A stretch of DNA of 64,000 bases from a virus (IMGVR_UViG_3300032431_000004:10824-74823), one strand, 5' to 3'. Shown: positions 12,049 through 64,000, counted from the stretch's first letter. Numbers and translations: made by a program. The notes: a model not told the origin generated them from the sequence alone.

Positions 12049-12365
12049 TCGCTACAGATAGGTTAGGGGAGCGCGATCGCCCCTAGCAAAGCCCCCAAAA
12101 GCGATCGCATGTAGAGAATAACCGAAATCGTAGAGAGCGGCGAAAAATGGGCGATAGGATGGCGATAGCGATCGCATGTACGCGTTTGTAACCATTACTA
12201 GGCAACGGTTACAGCAGTCAAACAGCTTCCTGAGTACGCGTTACTAGAACCTGTTGCAAGGTCAAACACCTTGCAAGTAGAGAGCCTTTAGAATCGCTAG
12301 AATCCCTTGTAGCTCAACGCTTGCCCCTTGCAACCTAGAGAGAACAGGGCAGCCAGAAGGCAGGT

Positions 12366-12490
12366 AAAAACAGGCAGTGTCATGTTGACTGTCATACTTT
12401 TGGCAACACATTCTAAGCCTTGCTGAGCATGAGTTAGAAGCCTGCCGTCGCAGCGTCACTGACATCTAGTAGTTTTAGGTTTGCTGCCAA
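12366..12490 (+). repeat. Palindromic dispersed element, copy 1 (left arm only)
   Basis: aaaacaggcagtgtc-atgtt-gactgtcatacttttggcaacac...ctgccgtcgcagcgtcactgacatctagtagttttagg. Confidence 0.9.
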
Positions 12491-12764
12491 AGACTTAAGA
12501 TGGCAGCGATCGCCCATGTTAGGAAAAAAGGAATGCTTGCAGGCTTCTGGTTTTGCTTCAATAGCTATCTAGACTGGCATCGGTTAATGGTTCAGGCGTA
12601 CAACCAGTCGTTTAATCAGTTCAAATTTTTCAGATGCTTAGGGCAAACCGAATGGTTGACTTGAGGCAGCAATCGGCAGGCAGCGCTGCGCGATCGCCCA
12701 TAGCTTCATTTTCTTTAGCCGCCTGATTTGGGCGGCTTTCCTTTGGGCGATCGCGTTTTTCGCT

Positions 12765-13064
12765 AAAAGTAGGCAGTGTCATGTTGACTGTCATACTTTT
12801 GGCAACATACTCTAACCCATACTCAGTAAAGCTTAGACACCTGCCGTCGCACTGTCATTGGCATTAAGAGTTTTAGATTCTGAGATTAGGATTATCTCTA
12901 AGAAGATTAGATATTTAATTCAGTGAATTAATAACTCTGAATCCTCTCCTATTTTGAAATCAGAAAAATCAATGACAGTGCGACGGCAGGCATCTAAGCC
13001 ATATATACCAAGGCTTTAAGTGTGTTGCCAATTTGTTGACTGTCACGTAGACACTGCCTGTTTT
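12765..13064 (+). repeat. Palindromic dispersed element, copy 2 (full, ~300 bp)
   Basis: ~100-bp imperfect inverted arms around an AT-rich centre ttaattcagtgaattaa. Confidence 0.95.
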
Positions 13065-13094
13065 TTTGGGGATTCTAGCAGCTGAGACTACCCC

Positions 13095-13260
13095 TAAAAA
13101 GACTCAGGTATTTAATCCAATAGATTGAATACCTGAGTCTTCCCTTATTTTGAAATCGTAAAAGTCAATGACGCTGCGACGGGAGGTGTCTAACCCATAC
13201 TCAGCAATACTTTAACCCTGTTGCCAAAACAATGACAGTCACGTAGACACTGCCTGTTTT
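13095..13260 (+). repeat. Palindromic dispersed element, copy 3 (centre + right arm)
   Basis: Central hairpin aagactcaggtatttaatc/gattgaatacctgagtctt, then arm ending gacactgcctgtttt. Confidence 0.9.
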
Positions 13261-17888: not shown

Positions 17889-18065
17889 TTACTCCGCTGA
17901 CATAGCGATCGCGCTTTTGATATCAGCATCGCTAAACCCCCGCTTCCGCCCTTCTGCAAATATTCTGGCTTGATATGCCGCATCGGTCTGGTCACTGAGG
18001 TCAACACCAGAGTCTAGGATTTTAGAGATAATTTCGTTCAGGATTTCAGTGGGATTAAGTTTCAT
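17889..18065 (-). CDS. Small hypothetical protein
   Basis: ATG 18065 (MKLNPTE); the longer track ORF starts inside the repeat element. Confidence 0.55.
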   Translation of the reverse strand: MKLNPTEILNEIISKILDSGVDLSDQTDAAYQARIFAEGRKRGFSDADIKSAIAMSAE

Positions 18066-18165
18066 CGTTTTTGCCTTTTGCTGCTTACTTTTATAGTATG
18101 TCACAAAAAGAGTGGGAATAGTGGGAAGTTTCATATTGACTGCGTGAAGATGTGCGATCGCGCTT

Positions 18166-18463
18166 AAAAGAGGCAGTGTCAACATGACTGTCATACTTTT
18201 GGCAACACACTCTAAGACTTACTGAGTATGGGCTAGACACCTGCCGTCGCACTGTCATTGGCATTAAGAGTTTTAGGTTTACTGCCAGAGTTCCCACTAA
18301 AAAGATTCAGGCATTTAATCTCAGCAGATTAAATGCCTGAATCTTCTCCTATTCTGAAATCACAAAAGTATGTGACGCTGTGACAGCAGCCTTCTAAGGT
18401 ATACGTATCAGGGCTTTAGGTATGTTGCCAAAACAATGACAGTCATGTTGACACAACGCTTTT
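18166..18463 (+). repeat. Palindromic dispersed element, copy 4 (full)
   Basis: Inverted arms; perfect 19-bp central hairpin aagattcaggcatttaatc/gattaaatgcctgaatctt. Confidence 0.95.
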
Positions 18464-19355: not shown

Positions 19356-19496
19356 ATGACTACCAAAAAGCACGCGATCGCAGCCTATCTAGACGAAAAG
19401 GAAGTTGAGTTCTTATGTGCGATCGCATTGGAGTGGGGATGCAGCATGTCTGCCGCCATCAAAAGGCTAATTAGAGAGAAGGCGAAGGAGGGTTGA
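19356..19496 (+). CDS. CopG/ribbon-helix-helix small regulator (46 aa, not in track)
   Basis: RBS GAGG; MTTKKHAIAAYLDEKEVEFLCAIALEWGCSMSAAIKRLIREKAKEG. Confidence 0.7.
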   Translation: MTTKKHAIAAYLDEKEVEFLCAIALEWGCSMSAAIKRLIREKAKEG

Positions 19497-57555: not shown

Positions 57556-57921
57556 GTGGCAAACGGCGAAAGGCGGAAAGAGCTAAGAGTGAACCTGACG
57601 CTCCCCAGCACATATTTTCAGCATCTACGGCGGTGGGCGTCAGAAGTAAGAGAGCAACCCACTAGCCTTGCTGCCAGACTGACGATGGAGGGAATAGACT
57701 CCGCGCTAAAGGAAGGGCGCATACCCGTGGGCATTTCTCCATATCAATCGCTGGCTCATCTAGTGCTAGAAAACTGGGATTTACTTATAGAAGAGAGTGA
57801 AGTAGATCCCGGCCGCCTCAGCTCAATTAGGGACGGCGCAACCCCAGACGAAATGGATCTATTAAAAATTGCCTGCACACTGAAGCTATCGATCAAGGAA
57901 GTGCGATCGCTTTTGCGGTAG
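57556..57921 (+). CDS. Putative repressor (RHH-like N-terminus + XRE-like HTH)
   Basis: RVNLTLP...SLAA; RLSSI.DG..P...LLKIA..L; divergent from 56946. Confidence 0.6.
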   Translation: MANGERRKELRVNLTLPSTYFQHLRRWASEVREQPTSLAARLTMEGIDSALKEGRIPVGISPYQSLAHLVLENWDLLIEESEVDPGRLSSIRDGATPDEMDLLKIACTLKLSIKEVRSLLR

Positions 57922-57960
57922 GAAGTGCTGGCTGCCGTGACAGCAAAAGTAGAGCGACCT

Positions 57961-57998
57961 AAAAGCAGGCATACCTTTTGGATATGCCTGCTTTTTTT
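57961..57998 (+). terminator. Repeated terminator, copy A
   Basis: gcaggcata/tatgcctgc + T7 + ggctaaat. Confidence 0.85.
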
Positions 57999-58012
57999 GG
58001 CTAAATGCTGCT

Positions 58013-58313
58013 AAAAAGGGGCCGTGTCAACGTGACTGACATACTTCTGGCAACACCCTCTAGCTCTTACTGAGTATGGGTTAGATGCCTGTCGTCGCAG
58101 CGTCACCGGCATTAAGGGTTTTAGATCCTGAAACTAGGATTGCCCTTAAGAGATCTGAATATTTAATTCAGTGAATTAATAACTCTAAATCCTGTTCTAT
58201 TTTGAAATCACAAAAGTCTGTGACGGTGGGACAACACACTCCTAACCATTGGTATATATAGCTTAGAGGGTGTTGCCAAAACTATGGCAGTCACGTTGAC
58301 ACGGCGCTATTTT
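58013..58313 (+). repeat. Palindromic dispersed element, copy 8 (full)
   Basis: Inverted arms and conserved centre. Confidence 0.95.
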
Positions 58314-58356
58314 GGAAGGTGCTATAGCGCTTTTCAGGAATACTTTGGACAATCGC

Positions 58357-58385
58357 TTGACTATCCCGATACGCTGCACTATATT
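58357..58385 (+). promoter_or_regulatory. Sigma70 promoter (duplicated at 60348)
   Basis: TTGACT-17-TATATT followed by gggagataagaaacga. Confidence 0.8.
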
Positions 58386-58435
58386 GGGAGATAAGAAACG
58401 AACACCAACACAGCTCAGTAAAAACGGAAAACTTC

Positions 58436-59095
58436 ATGACTACTAAATTCGCTTTTGCTTACACCGACTCTGGACTACTCCCTAGATTTCGTGACAATCA
58501 CTTTCATTATCATCATTTCTTTCCATCAAAAGGAGAATACGCAATCATTGAACCATTAATCTCGGGAAGCGAGATGTCAGGAGGTTTTGATCTTGCTGTT
58601 AAATTCTTAGCTACCAGGGATGACCGACTGCATGAAGAAGCCAGCGAAAATGATGGCGAATTACCCTTTGGCTGCTGTTCATCCTATGTAGAACCAGAGC
58701 TGCTGTGCATCTATGAAACCACCTCGGGCACGGTTCTATGTGTGGACGTACATGGCGATCGTCAAATCTCGATACCAATTGTTAGAGCTGGAGGTTTCCA
58801 CCACAAAATCATCTTGCTAGTGCTAGCCGGGATTACAGCAGCTCAGCTGAGCCGATACGAAAACCTTCATACGGTCGGTGCAGATGAATTTGAGTCAGCA
58901 CATAAAGAGCGCAAAGCTCTCTATGATTCAATCCTCTGCCAGCACGGGTACGAGCCTTATGAGTCTTGGGAGCAACACGTTCAAGCTGAATGCGATCGCA
59001 AAGATCGCCTCGCTTCTGGAGTTGGCGAATGGTCGATTGATGATACCGATTATGAGGATTACGAGGGCGCAGATTTACAAGATGACGGCAATTGA
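58436..59095 (+). CDS. Hypothetical acidic protein (cassette 1)
   Basis: Downstream of promoter. Confidence 0.65.
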   Translation: MTTKFAFAYTDSGLLPRFRDNHFHYHHFFPSKGEYAIIEPLISGSEMSGGFDLAVKFLATRDDRLHEEASENDGELPFGCCSSYVEPELLCIYETTSGTVLCVDVHGDRQISIPIVRAGGFHHKIILLVLAGITAAQLSRYENLHTVGADEFESAHKERKALYDSILCQHGYEPYESWEQHVQAECDRKDRLASGVGEWSIDDTDYEDYEGADLQDDGN

Positions 59096-59100
59096 TTCTC

Positions 59101-59427
59101 ATGCCTAGAAGAAATCCTCAAGAGGGCGATCGCGTTCGCCCTCACGACAAGACCAGTAATCTGCGCGGAATAATCACGATAGCCTCACCGCAGCCGGGAG
59201 GCGAAGTGACAATCAGAGTTGGCGTAGATGGCAGCCTAACCATCCAAGGCACATGGAAGGAGCTAAGTAAGTCATGGAGCATCACAAAGCCCATTAACAC
59301 CCAAAGGAGGGTTCTGACGATGCCCCTGGAGATAGATAAAGAATTGGTGATGATTGGGGATGAGCAAGGGCTATCGCCTGAGGCAGTCGCCATTGAGCTG
59401 CTGAGGGATGCGATCGCATCTAGGTAA
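59101..59427 (+). CDS. Protein with C-terminal RHH/Arc-like domain; paralog of 61471..61797
   Basis: MPR.NP, GTWKEL, NTQRRVLT.P..ID.EL...EQG.SPE.VAIELLR. Confidence 0.75.
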   Translation: MPRRNPQEGDRVRPHDKTSNLRGIITIASPQPGGEVTIRVGVDGSLTIQGTWKELSKSWSITKPINTQRRVLTMPLEIDKELVMIGDEQGLSPEAVAIELLRDAIASR

Positions 59428-59502
59428 AAAGTAGATCAGCCTGATAGCATTTCTAGCCAGTCATTTTCGTAGAAAACTAAATCAAAAAGAGTAGAGAATC
59501 TA

Positions 59503-59916
59503 ATGCCAAATTACCTAGTGTTTCGCTCCCCTACTGGAATTCGTGCTGTTGTACTGGGCGCACCCGGTACAGGAGTGCCAAAAGACCAAGTTATGAGAGA
59601 AGATGAACGATTTGCGGTGGTCATTGATGACGTTCCTAGTCCAGAGGCGGCGATTTGGAAGGCTGCGCTGGAATACCACGAAGATGCGATCGCCGGAATG
59701 ATGAAGGTATTGGTTTTTTATCTGGACGAAATCGACTGGGATCGTGATAGCACTTTCAACGCAGAAGTCGTAGACGAAGTTTTTAAGAGCCTCCATCGAC
59801 TCCACAAAGAAGGGCTTTCCTGCACTCAGGAGCTTGAAGATCTGACCCCGCATTGGATCGTCCCTGGAAAAGAGGTTGAGCCAGAAGAGAGTCTTGAGCA
59901 GCTAACCCTGATCTGA
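59503..59916 (+). CDS. Hypothetical protein flanked by 22-bp direct repeat
   Basis: aaaagtagaYcaRcctgatagc at 59427-59448 and 59936-59957. Confidence 0.65.
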   Translation: MPNYLVFRSPTGIRAVVLGAPGTGVPKDQVMREDERFAVVIDDVPSPEAAIWKAALEYHEDAIAGMMKVLVFYLDEIDWDRDSTFNAEVVDEVFKSLHRLHKEGLSCTQELEDLTPHWIVPGKEVEPEESLEQLTLI

Positions 59917-59955
59917 TCGGGTTGCACTTAAGTCTAAAAGTAGACCAACCTGATA

Positions 59956-59990
59956 GCGGGCATACCCAAAAAGTATGCCCGCCTTTTTTT
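59956..59990 (+). terminator. Repeated terminator, copy B
   Basis: gcgggcatac/gtatgcccgc + T7. Confidence 0.85.
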
Positions 59991-60005
59991 GGCTAAATGC
60001 CACTG

Positions 60006-60305
60006 AAACAGCGCAGTGTCTACGTGACTGACATACTTTTGGCAACACACTCAAACCCTTACTTAGCACGGCTTAGATGCCTCCCGTCGCAGCGTCACTG
60101 ACATTAAGGGTTTTAGATTCTGAGATTAGGATTAGTCCTAAGAGATCTGAATATTTAATTCAGTGAATCAATAACTCTAAATCCTGTTCTATTTTGAGAT
60201 CGTAAAAGTCAATGACGGTGGGACAACACACCTCTAAGCATTGATATATATAGTTCAGAGGGTGTTGCCAAAAGTATGTCAGTCAACATGACACTGCCTT
60301 GCTTT
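60006..60305 (+). repeat. Palindromic dispersed element, copy 9 (full)
   Basis: Inverted arms and conserved centre. Confidence 0.95.
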
Positions 60306-60347
60306 GGAGGGTGCATGGCACTTCTCAGAAATACTTTAGCTAATCGC

Positions 60348-60376
60348 TTGATTATCCCGATACACTGTACTATATT
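60348..60376 (+). promoter_or_regulatory. Sigma70 promoter (paralog of 58357)
   Basis: TTGATT-17-TATATT followed by gggagataagaaacga. Confidence 0.8.
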
Positions 60377-60425
60377 GGGAGATAAGAAACGAGTCCAGCA
60401 CGCCAAACACAAAAGAGAAATTAAA

Positions 60426-61220
60426 ATGTTTACCTTGAATGTTGCCCCTCAATTGACTCATTCCTTTGGCTGGCAAGAGCTAGAAAAGATTGAAGCTTTC
60501 AAGGCTTCTGTCATGTCGCTATCTGGCGACGTGCGGATGCCAAGCGATATCTGCATTGATATCACTTCGGAAGAGAGCGAGAAATTCAACACTACTATTT
60601 ACGAAATGGTTGCAAAGGTAAGGGGCGAGGATGTCTATAGTCAAAACTTTAGGCAGACCACGGTTGACGACTTCCGGCTGTCAAACTACTCTTTCCGTGA
60701 ACTCTTGGGAAAGGTTATATCAACTCAAGTCATCGACGGACTCCTGCCCCTTGAATGGGTGGAATTGCTTGAGGTAAGTGGCTTGCCTTGCCCTAGGAAT
60801 ATAAGCCATAAGCTACTCCCAGGAGTTAAAGCCTGGTCTGATGGTGCGATCCAAAAAGCAACCTGGAGTGGAGAGTGTGAAGATATATTCTTGACTAAAG
60901 CTGGCAGTCAAAACTGGAAAGTCTGCTTCGTTAACGGGGATACGTTCTACCTCCCACCTAGCGGGTGGACGGCAAAGGTTGAGAGCCTAGAAAAGGTTGA
61001 AGCTAGGCTGGCAGCGGTAGAGTCTCAGAGAGCAGATGAGTCGCTAGCTGCGGCACAGAGATACATTGGCTGGGCGGTGTCAGCAGTCGTTGGGAGCGAG
61101 ATCACCCTTACGTCTCCTACTGGGGAAACGGTAGCAATCAAAGCGTCCCACGAAGTCTGGGACTGTGGAAATAAGAGTCAATCATGGCTGGTCATCGGTG
61201 GCGATTGCTTCTTGAGTTAA
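60426..61220 (+). CDS. Hypothetical protein (cassette 2)
   Basis: ATG 60426 after promoter; track start lies inside the repeat. Confidence 0.65.
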   Translation: MFTLNVAPQLTHSFGWQELEKIEAFKASVMSLSGDVRMPSDICIDITSEESEKFNTTIYEMVAKVRGEDVYSQNFRQTTVDDFRLSNYSFRELLGKVISTQVIDGLLPLEWVELLEVSGLPCPRNISHKLLPGVKAWSDGAIQKATWSGECEDIFLTKAGSQNWKVCFVNGDTFYLPPSGWTAKVESLEKVEARLAAVESQRADESLAAAQRYIGWAVSAVVGSEITLTSPTGETVAIKASHEVWDCGNKSQSWLVIGGDCFLS

Positions 61221-61274
61221 TCTTGCGACCCTGACACGATCGCATTCCAGCCAACCCAGGAGAGAAAACAGAAA

Positions 61275-61478
61275 ATGAGTCAGTTCACCCCCGCTCAAAA
61301 CGATTCTGCTAAAGCCTACCAAGCCTACGTTGATGGCGGATGGGCTAAGAACGAGTTTTATAGCTATGCCTCAAACAACGATCCCTATGGATGGAAAGAT
61401 TCTTGGATAGGAGAATCCTTTTCTCAGTGGCTAGCTACTGAGCTAGTGGGAAGAGAGCACAAGAGCAATTATGCCTAG
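61275..61478 (+). CDS. Small hypothetical protein
   Basis: RBS AGGAG. Confidence 0.6.
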   Translation: MSQFTPAQNDSAKAYQAYVDGGWAKNEFYSYASNNDPYGWKDSWIGESFSQWLATELVGREHKSNYA

Positions 61479-61797
61479 AGGAAATCCCAAACCAGGCGGC
61501 TCTGTTCGCCCTCGCGACACGACCAGCCAGCTCCGAGGATACATCGATCCAACCTCGTCCATCGATCAGGGGCGCGTTATCATCAGGGACGCAGTAGACG
61601 GTGCCCTGATCGGCTGTGGCACATGGAAGGAGCTGCGCAAGGTCTGGCTCCTCATGAAATGCGTTAACACCCAAAGGCGGGTTCTGACAGTGCCACGGGA
61701 TATCGACAGCGAATTGATAAGGCTGGGGGTGGAGCAAGGGCGATCGCCTGAGTCTGTAGCCATTGAGCTGCTGAGAGGGGCGATCGCGCTTAAGTAA
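61471..61797 (+). CDS. Protein with C-terminal RHH/Arc-like domain; paralog of 59101..59427
   Basis: High similarity at protein and DNA level. Confidence 0.75.
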   Translation: MPRGNPKPGGSVRPRDTTSQLRGYIDPTSSIDQGRVIIRDAVDGALIGCGTWKELRKVWLLMKCVNTQRRVLTVPRDIDSELIRLGVEQGRSPESVAIELLRGAIALK

Positions 61798-61816
61798 AAA
61801 GTAGATCAGCCTGATA

Positions 61817-61850
61817 GCGGGCATACCCAAAAAGTATGCCCGCCTTTTTT
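61817..61850 (+). terminator. Repeated terminator, copy C
   Basis: Stem identical to copy B. Confidence 0.85.
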
Positions 61851-61864
61851 GGCTAAATACTTTC

Positions 61865-62166
61865 AAAACAGGCAGTGTCATGTTGACTGACATACTTTTG
61901 GCAGCATACTCAAACCCTTACTGGGTATGGATTAGGTGCCTCCCGTCGCAGCGTCACTGACATCTAGTAGTTTTAGATCCTGAGATTAAGATTAGCCCTA
62001 AGAGATCTGAATATTTAATTCAGTGAATTAATAACCCTGAATCCTGTTCTATTTTGAAATCAGGAAAATCAATGACAGTGCGACGGCAGGCATCTAAGCC
62101 ATATATACCAACGCTTTAACCCTGTTGCCAAAAGTATGTCAGTCACGTTGACACGGCGCTATTTTT
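61865..62166 (+). repeat. Palindromic dispersed element, copy 10 (full)
   Basis: Inverted arms and conserved centre. Confidence 0.95.
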
Positions 62167-62261
62167 GGGAATTTTAGCGGCTGAGGCTATCCTAGTCAGA
62201 TTTCCCAGCCGTAATATTCCAGAGTTCTGGAATATCCAACATATTGATTCAGATTTAGCTG

Positions 62262-62291
62262 TTGACAGGCGATCGCATTTCTCTGTATTGT
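62262..62291 (+). promoter_or_regulatory. Sigma70-type promoter
   Basis: TTGACA-18-TATTGT. Confidence 0.55.
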
Positions 62292-62315
62292 CGGAAAACT
62301 GATTGGAGTAAAACG

Positions 62316-63152
62316 TTGGACACAAAGACCTGGAAGAAATTTGAATGCCAGTCATTTGAAAAAGCGATCGCACTTTTCAAGAAACAGCATCCTGACTGGC
62401 TCACTAAATTTGCCAGTCAAATCGGAATAATTGAGGCTACCTACAGCTCATTGCCAGAAGAGGAGCGACCTAGGGTTCTTTTCATCATGCGGGTGCTACT
62501 GACAGATTTAGGGTATTCATGGCCGCTGGCAGATGAGCGAGAGCGCAGGTCAGAGCGCAGTCAGGAAAGATTTGCCGACATCCTTCGTGGGAGAACCCTC
62601 ACCATGAGCCAAGTTAGGGCAATTTCCAACTTGAAAACCCACTCAGTAGAGCGAACGCTGATGGAGATGCTAGAAGAAGGGCTTGTAACGAGGGTGCGGC
62701 AGCCAGACGGGCATTTTCTCTACAGCCTGACAAACGACGCTGAGGGAAGCACACGGCTGTCACTCACCAAAGCCCAGCGCAACGAGGCAGAAAACAGGAG
62801 GCGGGTGATCGAAGCGCTCGTTGGTGACATGCTCAGCCTGACCGCCATCCGTGCGATCGCACATATGAGCAGGCTAAAGGTGAACGAAGTCGTAAAAGCA
62901 CTGGTGTCAGAAGGGCTAGTAGTCTCCGCAGCTTGTCCAAGGGGCGATCATGTGTATGGGCTACCCGGTGGCAGGTCGTTGGAACAAACGATGCTCAGTC
63001 GCATTGCAGCCACCGCAGAGAAGATAAAACGATCGGATACCTACGATCCCAAGTCGCTTCGCAGGGAACTCGCTAGAAGGGCATATGTACCGGGCAAGCT
63101 CTTGGATCAGCACAGAGACTTGTGGGCTGATGATCAGGAGGCAGCAGCATGA
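62316..63152 (+). CDS. DNA-binding protein with tandem winged-helix domains
   Basis: GGAG + TTG start; VERTLMEMLEEGLV and VNEVVKALVSEGLV. Confidence 0.7.
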   Translation: MDTKTWKKFECQSFEKAIALFKKQHPDWLTKFASQIGIIEATYSSLPEEERPRVLFIMRVLLTDLGYSWPLADERERRSERSQERFADILRGRTLTMSQVRAISNLKTHSVERTLMEMLEEGLVTRVRQPDGHFLYSLTNDAEGSTRLSLTKAQRNEAENRRRVIEALVGDMLSLTAIRAIAHMSRLKVNEVVKALVSEGLVVSAACPRGDHVYGLPGGRSLEQTMLSRIAATAEKIKRSDTYDPKSLRRELARRAYVPGKLLDQHRDLWADDQEAAA

Positions 63153-63784
63153 CTGTGTTTCTCAGTAGTTACGCATTTGAGATGATCATTCGCCACGCTG
63201 ATCGATGTTGGGGTGGAGTCTACATGGAAAAGTTCAACTACGTAGAAGTTTCCATCGTCGTCCTCTGCCAAACAAGACGTGGCAAGTTCTTGGTAGGAAT
63301 TGAAAGTGTTTACCCTGAAGGTGTCTGGGAGTTCATAAACGAAGAAGACTACGACCAAGATTTTATTGATTTTAATTCGACTTTTCACTGTGAAGTCTGG
63401 GATGCAAATCAGGTATTGAAAGAGTTTGAAGGCTGCAAGTGTCCCATTCATCCTTTTAGCAATCTACCTTGTCGTCGCTTCGGTGATGAGGACAGCAGAT
63501 TTATCTCACAAGGCACTATCCCCATCAAGAAGCCAGACAGCGTAGTTGAGCCTGAAGGATACGATTGGTGGTACACATGGGCGACTGCTTCAGGACACCC
63601 AGAAGGAAAAATTAAATACGGGCTGCACTGCTTCTATCCACAGAACCAACGAGAACGCAAAGCGATAGAAATAAAATTCTCCAACGGCATGAGCTTTCCT
63701 TGGATGCACGGGGATAGAGGCTTGACAGCGAAGCTAGAGGCATTTCTTCCCTTGTGGGCTGGCGATCAGGAGGCAGCAGCATGA
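63149..63784 (+). CDS. Hypothetical protein flanked by 33-bp direct repeat
   Basis: Both this and the upstream gene end LWA.DQEAAA*. Confidence 0.65.
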   Translation: MTVFLSSYAFEMIIRHADRCWGGVYMEKFNYVEVSIVVLCQTRRGKFLVGIESVYPEGVWEFINEEDYDQDFIDFNSTFHCEVWDANQVLKEFEGCKCPIHPFSNLPCRRFGDEDSRFISQGTIPIKKPDSVVEPEGYDWWYTWATASGHPEGKIKYGLHCFYPQNQRERKAIEIKFSNGMSFPWMHGDRGLTAKLEAFLPLWAGDQEAAA

Positions 63785-63804: not shown

Positions 63805-63920
63805 AGAAAAGCGCTATTGAAAACCTAGACAAAGTTGGATAAACCCATTCTTCCCCGTCCCTCGGTTTAGCGGCAAAGAAAAGCGCTATTGAAAACCTAG
63901 GCAAAGTTGGGTAAATCCAT
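63805..63920. repeat. 44-bp direct repeat x2 (72-bp period)
   Basis: agaaaagcgctattgaaaacctagRcaaagttggRtaaaYccat at 63805 and 63877. Confidence 0.8.
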
Positions 63921-64000
63921 GTATGCCGACAGTCCGTGAGCAAAGCGCACTAGGCTCACTGAGGATTACTGAAGTGCCTTGCGGCTTGCCAATCGTCTTC

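What the first reader, a model, noticed from the sequence alone, without database searches (positions are those of the whole stretch)
57961..63784. Tandem cassette array: terminator - palindromic element - promoter - variable genes - conserved RHH gene
Seen: three successive units start with the same terminator (57961, 59956, 61817), then a full element, then a sigma70 promoter (near-identical at 58357 and 60348). Unrelated cargo ORFs follow, and units 1 and 2 both carry paralogous RHH/Arc-like genes (59101, 61471) after the first cargo. Inference: an integron-like or accordion expression platform in which cargo is swapped between conserved scaffolds. Strong host-type promoters suggest early host-takeover or anti-defence genes, and the RHH paralogs are candidate binders of the scaffold.
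Basis: partly seen in the sequence, partly recalled or inferred. Interest (0 to 1): 0.82.

Follow-up and report, generated by a model that had tools for sequence, protein, structure and literature searches.

The report
Swappable accessory-gene cassettes in a cyanophage
A virus of cyanobacteria carries a row of self-contained gene cassettes whose conserved frame (terminator, 300-base palindromic spacer, strong promoter, small DNA-binding regulator gene) is kept while the genes inside are exchanged between related viruses, a layout phages typically use for counter-defence genes.

Summary
The window is most of a 74.8-kb cyanophage record, and the array lies at its right end. Three units each begin with a junction motif plus intrinsic terminator and a 303/304-nt palindromic element. 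Units 1 and 2 continue with a near-consensus sigma70 promoter, acidic orphan genes and a conserved 108-aa protein (R1, R2) with a ribbon-helix-helix-like C-terminus. Unit 3 has another promoter and encodes a double winged-helix regulator.

About 20 related metagenome contigs keep the frame and R (77-88% identical to R2). Between the promoter's 5'UTR and R's start codon they carry about eight unrelated gene sets, one an AcrIII-1/DUF1874 ring-nuclease homologue. Unit number varies, and two extra genes sit between 22-nt and 34-nt direct repeats.

Best reading: a hyperplastic accessory locus built of acr-aca-like, probably self-repressed operons, shuffled by homologous recombination in the conserved frame (PeSL-like). 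It is not an integron:
- no recombinase gene was found;
- each unit has its own promoter;
- breakpoints avoid the element;
- the element's arms do not covary.

Anti-defence function and repression by R are inferred, not shown.

This scan has noted RHH-regulated acr-aca-like cassettes in at least 21 other genomes, but no look-alike of this R protein.

The parts
57556..57921 (+). 121-aa gene upstream of unit 1. Its last 108 nt (57814-57921) belong to the conserved scaffold.
   Evidence: Weak RHH_5 match at the N-terminus (E 0.023). Homology in L009, L017 and L039 starts exactly at 57814.
57945..57998 (+). T1: 22-nt junction motif plus intrinsic terminator
   Evidence: Repeat family D5/D8. Folds at -22.6 kcal/mol, z -7.3. 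Motif listing.
58010..58313 (.). E1: 303-nt palindromic boundary element, carrying the right-arm allele shared by the aligned copies that precede a P promoter
58324..58401 (+). P1 module: -35 at 58357-58362, -10 at 58380-58385, inverted repeat at 58364-58389, and a conserved 5'UTR
58436..59095 (+). Cargo c58: 219 aa, pI 4.7, orphan family
   Evidence: No family hit. Homologues at 44-91% identity only in this phage lineage. Excess of third-position changes.
59101..59427 (+). R1: 108-aa paralogue with an RHH-like C-terminus
   Evidence: 60% identical to R2
59427..59448 (+). Orphan copy of the 22-nt junction motif, with no terminator behind it
59503..59916 (+). Cargo c595: 137 aa, pI 4.5, in the slot after R, lying between two copies of the junction motif
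   Evidence: Its homologue in L005 sits in a different gene context.
59936..59989 (+). T2: junction motif plus terminator (hairpin 59956-59982)
60002..60305 (.). E2: palindromic element
60315..60392 (+). P2 module: -35 at 60348-60353, -10 at 60371-60376, inverted repeat at 60355-60380
60426..61220 (+). Cargo c604: 264 aa, pI 4.8, orphan family
61275..61478 (+). Cargo c612: 67 aa
   Evidence: Homologues in L036 and L049
61471..61797 (+). R2: the conserved 108-aa regulator candidate, with an RHH-like C-terminus (residues about 66-108)
61797..61850 (+). T3: junction motif plus terminator (hairpin 61817-61843)
61861..62165 (.). E3: palindromic element with a different right-arm allele
62214..62291 (+). 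Unit 3 control region: 22-nt palindrome at 62214-62235 and promoter TTGACA-18-TATTGT at 62262-62291
   Evidence: Conserved in five relatives.
62316..63152 (+). Double winged-helix (MarR-like) protein with a TTG start; a fixed gene in relatives
   Evidence: Sub-threshold Pfam MarR_2 9.2e-6 (26.2 bits, cutoff 27) and TrmB. PHROG transcriptional regulator and Ren-like families. 78-83% identical in L009, L015 and L024.
63149..63784 (+). Optional gene c631 (211 aa), lying between 34-nt direct repeats at 63119-63152 and 63751-63784
   Evidence: Repeat D13. The gene is absent in L009, L015 and L024, where the winged-helix gene runs straight into the sequence that follows 63784.

Best explanation
The stretch is a hypervariable accessory-gene locus of a roughly 75-kb cyanophage. 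On the circular map it lies just upstream of the regulatory and replication genes.

Anatomy:
- It consists of self-contained transcription units separated by a conserved frame.
- The frame is a 22-nt junction motif plus intrinsic terminator, then one copy of the phage's dispersed 303/304-nt palindromic boundary element.
- In units 1 and 2 the frame ends with a near-consensus sigma70 promoter whose -10 box is overlapped by an 8-bp inverted repeat.

Units 1 and 2 are built like acr-aca operons. The promoter drives fast-evolving acidic orphan genes, followed by a conserved basic 108-aa protein (R) with a ribbon-helix-helix-like C-terminus, then a terminator. R most likely binds the inverted repeat and shuts the promoter off after an early burst.

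Unit 3 is a fixed regulator unit: its own promoter and palindrome, a double winged-helix protein and an optional extra gene.

Cargo is exchanged between co-infecting relatives by homologous recombination in the conserved frame. The frame's exchange sites are the promoter/5'UTR on one side, the R gene and terminator on the other, and the short 22-nt and 34-nt linkers. This matches PeSL-mediated modular shuffling in T4-type phages.

Shown:
- the anatomy;
- conservation of the frame and turnover of cargo;
- absence of a recognisable recombinase gene in the record;
- the lack of arm covariation in the element.

Inferred:
- early timing;
- repression by R;
- a counter-defence role for the cargo;
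- recombination as the exchange mechanism;
- the role of the element, probably a DNA-level protein-docking or boundary site.
For: What the record is:
- It is a phage: portal, large terminase, protease and major head protein are present, and the terminase is 43-48% identical to BcepMu-type phages.
- It carries 213 HIP1 octamers against 1.15 expected, which fits a cyanobacterial host.
- An ORF closes across the record's ends, and L009 runs from the array into the record's left end.
- Downstream lie helicases, a primase-helicase and methyltransferases.

Frame and R:
- Twelve promoter modules from relatives are nearly invariant from -35 through the 5'UTR.
- The inverted repeat TCCCGATA-N10-TATTGGGA occurs only at 58364 and 60355, against 0.07 expected. 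It is the only 8-bp inverted repeat close to the promoter core.
- R is 77-88% identical to R2 across cassettes that carry unrelated cargo.
- R is confined to this lineage: 25 clusters and 5 hits in the exhaustive profile search.
- R is basic, while the cargo proteins have pI 4.4-5.1.

RHH support:
- Predicted helices at residues 76-89 and 93-107 follow the RRVLT strand motif.
- A FitA-like RHH match has E 0.033.
- All the best language-model hits are RHH families, at 0.88-0.90.

Cargo turnover:
- About eight unrelated cargo sets occur between promoter and R.
- They include DUF1874 (Pfam 2.9e-28; PDB 2j6b 1.6e-15).
- The DUF1874 protein has a histidine that, by alignment offset, corresponds to the catalytic His-47.
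- A pentapeptide-repeat protein is another cargo.
- 5'UTR variants are shared by cassettes with different cargo.
- L009 has one promoter cassette where the window has two.
- The genes at 59503 and 63149 lie between 22-nt and 34-nt direct repeats.
- Contigs of the same sample break at the frame, and one runs into other sequence after P1.

Published precedents:
- Aca14, an RHH-type Aca that represses its own and a neighbouring operon through an inverted repeat over the -10 box (bioRxiv 10.64898/2026.07.27.740549).
- PeSL cassettes (PMC2839356).
Against: - No cargo gene of this window matches any known anti-defence, defence or other family.
- The c58 model is poor (pLDDT 58) and has no fold match.
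- This phage itself has no DUF1874 gene.
- The role of AcrIII-1 in native systems is debated (bioRxiv 10.1101/2023.01.10.523387).
- R has no family hit above threshold, and its monomer model is poor (pLDDT 49).
- The spacing between the repeat's half-sites, 18 bp centre to centre, is wide for an RHH operator.
- The inverted repeat shows no covariation: L042 and L050 change one arm only.
- There are no expression data.
- The host and its defence systems are unknown.
- What the 300-nt element does in the frame is unexplained.
Confidence: 0.55

Rival explanations
1. An array of morons, host-takeover genes or superinfection-exclusion genes. On this reading the units are ordinary promoter-gene-terminator insertions. 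Their products act on the host or on competing phages, not against host immunity, and R is a general early-gene regulator.
For: - Each unit has its own sigma70 promoter and intrinsic terminator, which is the defining layout of a moron.
- The winged-helix protein weakly matches a 'Ren-like exclusion protein' PHROG (1.5e-5).
- Cargo in relatives includes a T5orf172/MUG113 nuclease-like protein and a pentapeptide-repeat protein.
Against: - A DUF1874/AcrIII-1 homologue is the first cargo gene in three relatives.
- A conserved regulator gene at the 3' end, together with an operator over the -10 box, is the acr-aca design rather than the moron design.
- No integrase was found, so expression from a prophage is doubtful.
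Confidence: 0.25
2. An integron-like platform. On this reading the palindromic element acts as an attC-like folded recombination site, and a site-specific recombinase excises and inserts units of 1.9-2.0 kb.
For: - A long imperfect palindrome of strictly constant length (303/304 nt in 26 distinct copies) sits at every unit boundary.
- Unit number differs between relatives.
- The GTC-N5-GAC cores in the element vary and are sometimes reverse-complemented.
Against: - There is no Phage_integrase, Resolvase or rve match in the record.
- Every unit has its own promoter, unlike integron cassettes.
- Cargo breakpoints lie at the start codon and at R's start, not at the element.
- Only 4 of 52 predicted pairs show a compensatory change, and the covariation term is -0.59 kcal/mol.
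- The copies next to P have a right inner arm that no longer pairs with the left.
- Four other full copies in the phage are not attached to such cassettes.
Confidence: 0.07
3. Reverse-order toxin-antitoxin modules, in which the cargo is a toxin and R is an antitoxin with a C-terminal RHH DNA-binding domain, as in HicB.
For: The gene order (effector first, then a small protein with a C-terminal RHH-like domain) resembles hicAB-type loci. One of the phage's other small RHH proteins weakly matches HicB and CopG antitoxin families.
Against: - R stays 77-88% identical to R2 while the upstream genes are unrelated to each other. A specific antitoxin could not neutralise them all.
- Several cassettes carry two or three cargo genes.
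- One cargo is a ring nuclease.
- There are no PADLOC hits.
Confidence: 0.03
4. One ancient tandem duplication with no continuing exchange.
For: Within this genome the frames are not homogenised: the terminator modules are 74-96% identical, the elements 79-86%, the promoters 87%, and R1 and R2 60%.
Against: - Relatives at 83-93% DNA identity have other cargo, other unit numbers and mosaic frames.
- Frame pieces of unit 2 are closer to those of other phages (90-93%) than to unit 1 (86-87%).
Confidence: 0.02

Closest known systems
acr-aca (anti-CRISPR / anti-defence) operons, especially those with the ribbon-helix-helix regulator Aca14 (bioRxiv 10.64898/2026.07.27.740549)
   Same: - A strong promoter drives small, variable and mostly unannotated genes.
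- A conserved small DNA-binding regulator gene sits at the 3' end.
- An inverted repeat overlaps the -10 box.
- The same motif stands in front of two neighbouring operons.
- A ring nuclease is among the regulated genes: csx20 for Aca14, DUF1874 here in relatives.
   Different: - R has no detectable sequence relative outside its own phage lineage.
- R carries an extra N-terminal part of about 65 residues.
- No validated Acr is in this window.
- The operons are tandem and each is preceded by a 300-nt palindromic element.
- The virus is a cyanophage.
- Repression is untested.
PeSL (promoter-early stem-loop) cassettes of T4-type phages (Arbiol et al. 2010, PMC2839356)
   Same: - Repeated regulatory motifs made of a sigma70-like promoter and a terminator hairpin flank orphan genes in a hyperplastic region.
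- Differences between close relatives map to these motifs.
- Recombination between the motifs is the proposed shuffling mechanism.
   Different: - Here terminator and promoter are separated by a 303/304-nt element instead of forming one compact motif.
- The conserved 3' flank includes a whole regulator gene.
- Mini-circles were not looked for, because only contigs were available.
Integron gene cassettes (attC plus IntI)
   Same: Tandem units, each associated with an imperfect palindrome, with variable cargo and variable unit number.
   Different: - There is no integrase.
- Each unit has its own promoter and terminator.
- Breakpoints are not at the palindrome.
- The palindrome's arms do not covary.
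- The palindrome also occurs elsewhere in the genome without cassettes.
Phage morons (promoter-gene-terminator insertions of lambdoid phages)
   Same: Autonomous transcription units inserted between phage genes.
   Different: Units 1 and 2 carry a dedicated conserved regulator and a shared, conserved promoter/operator module, and the units are arrayed in tandem.

Membership tests
acr-aca operon | Strong promoter directly upstream of the operon | tested here: met
   TTGACT-17-TATATT and TTGATT-17-TATATT, nearly invariant in 12 cassettes. Promoter strength was not measured.
acr-aca operon | A validated anti-CRISPR or anti-defence gene in the operon | tested here: inconclusive
   None in the window. 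A DUF1874/AcrIII-1 homologue occupies the same slot in L009, L049 and L050.
acr-aca operon | Conserved DNA-binding regulator gene co-transcribed at the 3' end | tested here: met
   R follows the cargo in every complete cassette except L042. The RHH fold is supported only weakly.
acr-aca operon | Inverted-repeat operator within the promoter | tested here: met
   TCCCGATA-N10-TATTGGGA overlaps the -10 box and is unique to P1 and P2. Binding was not tested.
acr-aca operon | Regulator belongs to a named Aca family (Aca1-14) | tested here: inconclusive
   No Pfam or PDB-sequence hit to R (NCBIfam was not run on R), and no relatives outside the lineage in the exhaustive profile search. The Aca14 sequence itself was not available for a direct comparison.
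acr-aca operon | Autorepression and inhibition of a defence system shown by experiment | not testable with these tools
   This needs reporter, EMSA and infection assays.
PeSL cassettes | Repeated sigma70-like promoter plus terminator stem-loop flanking orphan genes in a hyperplastic region | tested here: met
   Here the two parts are split by the 303/304-nt element.
PeSL cassettes | Insertions, deletions and replacements between close relatives map to the motifs | tested here: met
PeSL cassettes | Mini-circles formed by exchange between neighbouring motifs | not testable with these tools
   The only run that holds the locus is kept as contigs. The two R1/R2 joints have short sides (33 nt) and were laid at 85% likeness.
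Integron | IntI-type tyrosine recombinase gene at the platform | tested here: not met
   PF00589 is absent from the record, as are PF00239 and PF00665. CheckV estimates the record as 78% complete, but it closes on itself.
Integron | Promoterless cassettes read from one common promoter | tested here: not met
   Each unit has its own promoter and terminator.
Integron | Cassette boundaries at a folded attC site kept by compensatory changes | tested here: not met
   Breakpoints lie at the start codons. Only 4 of 52 pairs show compensatory change.
MITE | Terminal inverted repeats with target-site duplications, copies in the host genome, and empty sites in relatives | tested here: not met
   No duplication is visible at the ends. 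No exact terminal pattern occurs in 185,579 prokaryote species genomes. Syntenic copies are kept in relatives. All distinct copies are 303/304 nt long and built from allelic boxes.
Type II toxin-antitoxin | Cognate toxin and antitoxin pair that co-vary | tested here: not met
   R is conserved next to unrelated upstream genes.

The most novel reading that the evidence does not exclude
The 303/304-nt palindromic element, with its invariant anchors and its variable, sometimes flipped GTC-N5-GAC cores, may be the recognition site of an unidentified phage or host recombinase or docking protein. That protein would move or copy whole terminator-element-promoter-cargo-R units. This would make the locus a phage-borne, integron-like cassette exchange system with self-regulated cassettes.
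Probability: 0.07. Interest if true: 0.9.

Novelty: new variant of a known kind. Interest (0 to 1): 0.52.

Why it matters
Very few counter-defence genes of cyanophages are known, and their hosts are rich in CRISPR and other defence systems.

If units 1 and 2 are Aca-type self-repressed operons, two things follow:
- R and its promoter/operator module become a guilt-by-association marker. It already picks out about eight unrelated candidate gene sets in this phage lineage, including an AcrIII-1-type ring nuclease.
- The locus offers a clean natural example of how conserved regulatory frames and short linkers at gene ends channel recombination, so that whole genes are swapped.

The unexplained 300-nt element at each unit boundary is the unusual ingredient. 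It deserves a binding-protein search.

Tried and rejected
Searches that found nothing:
- Rfam at gathering thresholds and tRNA scans of the window gave no hit.
- DNA searches of the locus against phage and plasmid collections gave no match.
- A search of viral contigs with R1 gave no relative.
- A profile of R against PDB sequences gave only chance hits.
- NCBIfam and PADLOC searches of the cargo proteins found nothing, apart from weak winged-helix hits.
- This scan's notes hold no look-alike of R.

Structure prediction:
- The AlphaFold2 model of R2 was poor (pLDDT 49), as expected for a monomer model of a probable obligate dimer built from a shallow alignment.
- The AlphaFold2 model of c58 reached pLDDT 58. 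Foldseek against PDB and BFVD gave no match at E <= 0.001.

Expression and read data:
- No RNA holder is listed for the locus, so expression is untested.
- Laying the one DNA run gave only contigs. Its 'joints' between R1 and R2 have 33-nt sides at 85% likeness, and I read them as mosaic alleles of relatives, not as evidence of deletion or circles.

Tools and ideas set aside:
- A small hairpin between the element and P1 (GCGCTAT/ATAGCGC) covaries between units 1 and 2, but it is not kept in relatives. I dropped it.
- I looked for the promoter half-sites in the element as possible R sites and found none.
- The toxin-antitoxin, MITE, RNA-hairpin and static-duplication readings are rejected for the reasons given under the rival explanations and the membership tests.

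Full report
**What the DNA is**

The window is bases 10824-74823 of a single 74,823-bp virus record. It encodes a portal protein, large terminase, head protease and major head protein. The terminase is 43-48% identical to those of BcepMu-type phages and of a Microcystis phage.

The octamer GCGATCGC (HIP1) occurs 213 times against 1.15 expected from base composition. From general knowledge this is a signature of cyanobacteria and their phages.

The record probably closes on itself. A roughly 100-aa minus-strand ORF spans the junction of its two ends. The related contig L009 also runs from the array straight into sequence homologous to the record's left end.

On the circular map, small HTH and RHH regulator genes follow the array. 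After them come a Dda-like helicase, a primase-helicase, a second helicase and methyltransferases.

**Check of the observation**

Three units start with a 54-nt module at 57945, 59936 and 61797 (74%, 100% and 96% identity).
- The module is a 22-nt junction motif followed by a hairpin and a T run.
- Two of the hairpins are picked up by the terminator scan.
- The first has a bulge and was missed by the scan.
- All three fold far better than shuffled sequence (-22.6, -18.6 and -18.5 kcal/mol; z -7.3, -3.9 and -3.6).

Each module is followed by a full copy of a palindromic element: 58010-58313, 60002-60305 and 61861-62165.

In units 1 and 2 a 78-nt module, 87% identical between them, follows about ten bases later. 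It holds TTGACT/TTGATT-17-TATATT. Unit 3 has a different promoter, TTGACA-18-TATTGT at 62262.

The paralogues at 59101 and 61471 encode 108-aa proteins that are 60% identical.

**The element is not special to the array**

The phage holds seven full and three half copies, all in gaps between long ORFs. Exact matches to its terminal pattern are absent from 185,579 prokaryote species genomes.

The 26 distinct full copies collected from the window and from metagenome contigs are all 303 or 304 nt long. They align almost without gaps, as invariant anchors separated by boxes that each take a few discrete alleles.

RNAalifold finds 52 pairs, nearly all between invariant columns. Only 4 pairs show a compensatory change, and the covariation term is -0.59 kcal/mol.

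In the aligned copies that precede the cassette promoter (the two in the window, plus L007, L009, L017, L039 and L049), the right inner arm carries an allele that no longer pairs with the left inner arm.

In the array the element lies between a terminator and a promoter, so outside the predicted transcripts. I conclude that it acts at the DNA level. It is most likely a platform of paired protein-binding sites or a boundary element, and it is neither an RNA hairpin nor a MITE. What the element actually does remains open.

**Relatives**

A scan of metagenome contigs with the element's terminal pattern returned 50 loci. About twenty of them overlap the array. Mapping the modules onto them gives a consistent cassette plan: terminator, element, promoter module, variable ORFs, R gene, terminator.

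The promoter module is nearly invariant from -35 to the first 17 nt of the 5'UTR in twelve cassettes. R is 77-88% identical to R2 throughout.

| Position | Gene(s) | Where seen |
|---|---|---|
| Promoter to R | c58 family (44-91% identical) | window, L007, L020, L043 |
| Promoter to R | c604 plus c612 | window |
| Promoter to R | DUF1874 protein | L009, L049, L050 |
| Promoter to R | 150/215-aa family | L009, L037 |
| Promoter to R | pentapeptide-repeat protein | L045 |
| Promoter to R | orphan genes | L039, L050, L052 |
| After promoter, no R found | orphan genes | L042 |
| After R | c595 | window |
| After R | T5orf172/MUG113-SH3 protein | L035 |

Further points from the comparison:
- L009 has a single promoter cassette followed by unit 3, where the window has two.
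- 5'UTR variants are shared by cassettes with different cargo, and homology ends within a few bases of the cargo start codon.
- On the other side, homology resumes at R's ATG.
- The frame of unit 2 is closer to frames in other phages (90-93%) than to unit 1 (86-87%).
- c595 lies between two copies of the 22-nt junction motif.
- c631 lies between two copies of a 34-nt repeat that encodes the last ten residues of the preceding protein, a Shine-Dalgarno sequence and the overlapping start codon. It is absent in L009, L015 and L024.
- A recurrent breakpoint at 57814 lies inside the upstream 121-aa gene.
- Contigs of the one public run that holds the locus break at the frame, and one continues after P1 into other sequence.

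**Mechanism of exchange**

No tyrosine recombinase, serine recombinase or rve-type domain is found anywhere in the record. Breakpoints lie in or at the ends of the conserved promoter module, the R gene and the short linkers, not at the element's edges. This is the pattern expected from homologous or short-homology recombination between co-infecting relatives, filtered by selection for intact genes. It is the mechanism proposed for PeSL cassettes in T4-type phages (PMC2839356). An integron-type mechanism is not supported.

**What the cassettes are for**

The architecture is that of acr-aca operons:
- a strong promoter;
- variable, small to medium, acidic proteins (pI 4.4-5.1 for all four cargo proteins of units 1 and 2, and for most cargo in relatives);
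- a conserved basic DNA-binding protein encoded last;
- an inverted repeat over the -10 box.

The repeat TCCCGATA-N10-TATTGGGA occurs only at P1 and P2 in the window, against 0.07 expected. It is the only 8-bp repeat close to the promoter core.

In three relatives the first cargo gene is a DUF1874 protein:
- Pfam STIV_B116-like, E 2.9e-28.
- PDB AFV3-109, E 1.6e-15, and STIV B116.
- SIRV1 protein 114 and Crn2-like CRISPR-associated chains also match.
- By alignment offset, its AIGH histidine corresponds to His-47 of SIRV1 gp29, the catalytic residue of the AcrIII-1 ring nuclease (bioRxiv 10.1101/778746).

A 2026 preprint describes Aca14, a ribbon-helix-helix Aca. It represses its own operon and a neighbouring one through an inverted repeat over the -10 box, in one case in an operon with a ring nuclease. 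That is the closest described design.

Codon-position patterns show that the cargo ORFs and R are coding, with many amino-acid changes.

**Limits**

- None of the window's own cargo genes has any family or fold match.
- This phage has no DUF1874 gene.
- Whether AcrIII-1 acts as an anti-CRISPR in native systems is debated.
- R's RHH fold rests on four weak lines: a strand-helix-helix pattern, two predicted C-terminal helices, one sub-threshold Pfam hit, and language-model neighbours that are all RHH families at 0.88-0.90.
- R has no relatives outside this lineage in two large searches.
- No RNA data exist for this DNA.

**Unit 3**

Unit 3 is conserved in five relatives with its promoter, a TTG start codon and a 22-nt palindrome upstream of the -35 box. 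The central bases of that palindrome are reverse-complemented between the window and the relatives. It encodes a protein with two MarR-like winged-helix domains. I read it as a fixed regulator unit, not a cargo cassette.

**Verdict**

The array is real and variable. It is best read as a PeSL-like, recombination-shuffled accessory locus whose two promoter cassettes follow the acr-aca design with a new RHH-like regulator family.

This scan has already noted RHH-regulated acr-aca-like cassettes in at least 21 other genomes, though nothing resembling this R protein. The kind is therefore known. What is new here:
- the cyanophage setting;
- the tandem arrangement;
- the extra N-terminal part of R;
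- the 303/304-nt boundary element built into the frame.

Noticed in passing
window 63805-63920: Two copies of a 44-nt repeat, 72 nt apart, duplicate the start of the small ORF that begins at 63781. In L009, L015 and L024 that sequence continues differently, without the window's early stop, whereas in the window the ORF stops after 15 codons.
   Followed up: partly
record junction: window about 63967-64000 joined to L001 1-274, minus strand: A roughly 100-aa ORF closes only if the two ends of the record are joined, so the record is probably a complete circularly permuted genome even though IMG/VR labels it linear and CheckV puts completeness at 78%. Relative to L009, the window has about 650 nt of extra sequence here.
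   Followed up: partly
window 62214-62235: A 22-nt palindrome lies upstream of the unit 3 promoter and is conserved in five relatives. Its central bases are the reverse complement of those in the window. It is a candidate operator of the double winged-helix protein.
   Followed up: partly
L046 1-1922: In one relative, an IS607-like pair sits directly next to a terminator-plus-element module. The pair is a MerR-type HTH / serine-recombinase-like ORF and a long TnpB-like ORF. The identification rests on sequence motifs only.
   Followed up: no
window 19356-19496 (+): A 46-aa RHH gene (RHH_1, E 0.007) lies between an antirepressor-like gene and a lone right half of the element, followed by a strong bidirectional terminator.
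   Followed up: partly
L014/L016 (IMGVR_UViG_3300027850_000025), contig positions 12.9-16.5 kb; window 18060-18463: Next to the element copy at 18.1 kb, the relative repeats the element's half plus the 100-nt promoter-bearing flank three times. About 3 kb of genes absent from the window lie between them, including a 62-aa RHH-like gene. This is a second cassette-like variable locus built on the same element.
   Followed up: partly
window 12357-13260: A left half, a full copy and a right half of the element lie in one 1.2-kb gap. Relatives differ here by insertions of several hundred bases.
   Followed up: no
element copies, alignment A4: The 5-nt core of GTC-N5-GAC at each end of the element takes a few alleles, some of them reverse complements of each other (ATGTT/AACAT, ACGTT/AACGT, TACGT/ACGTA). 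The left and right cores of one copy are often not complementary.
   Followed up: partly
L005 1-660: The homologue of c595 (87% aa identity) sits next to homologues of the window's 49.5-50.3 kb genes in another phage, so this gene moves between loci.
   Followed up: partly
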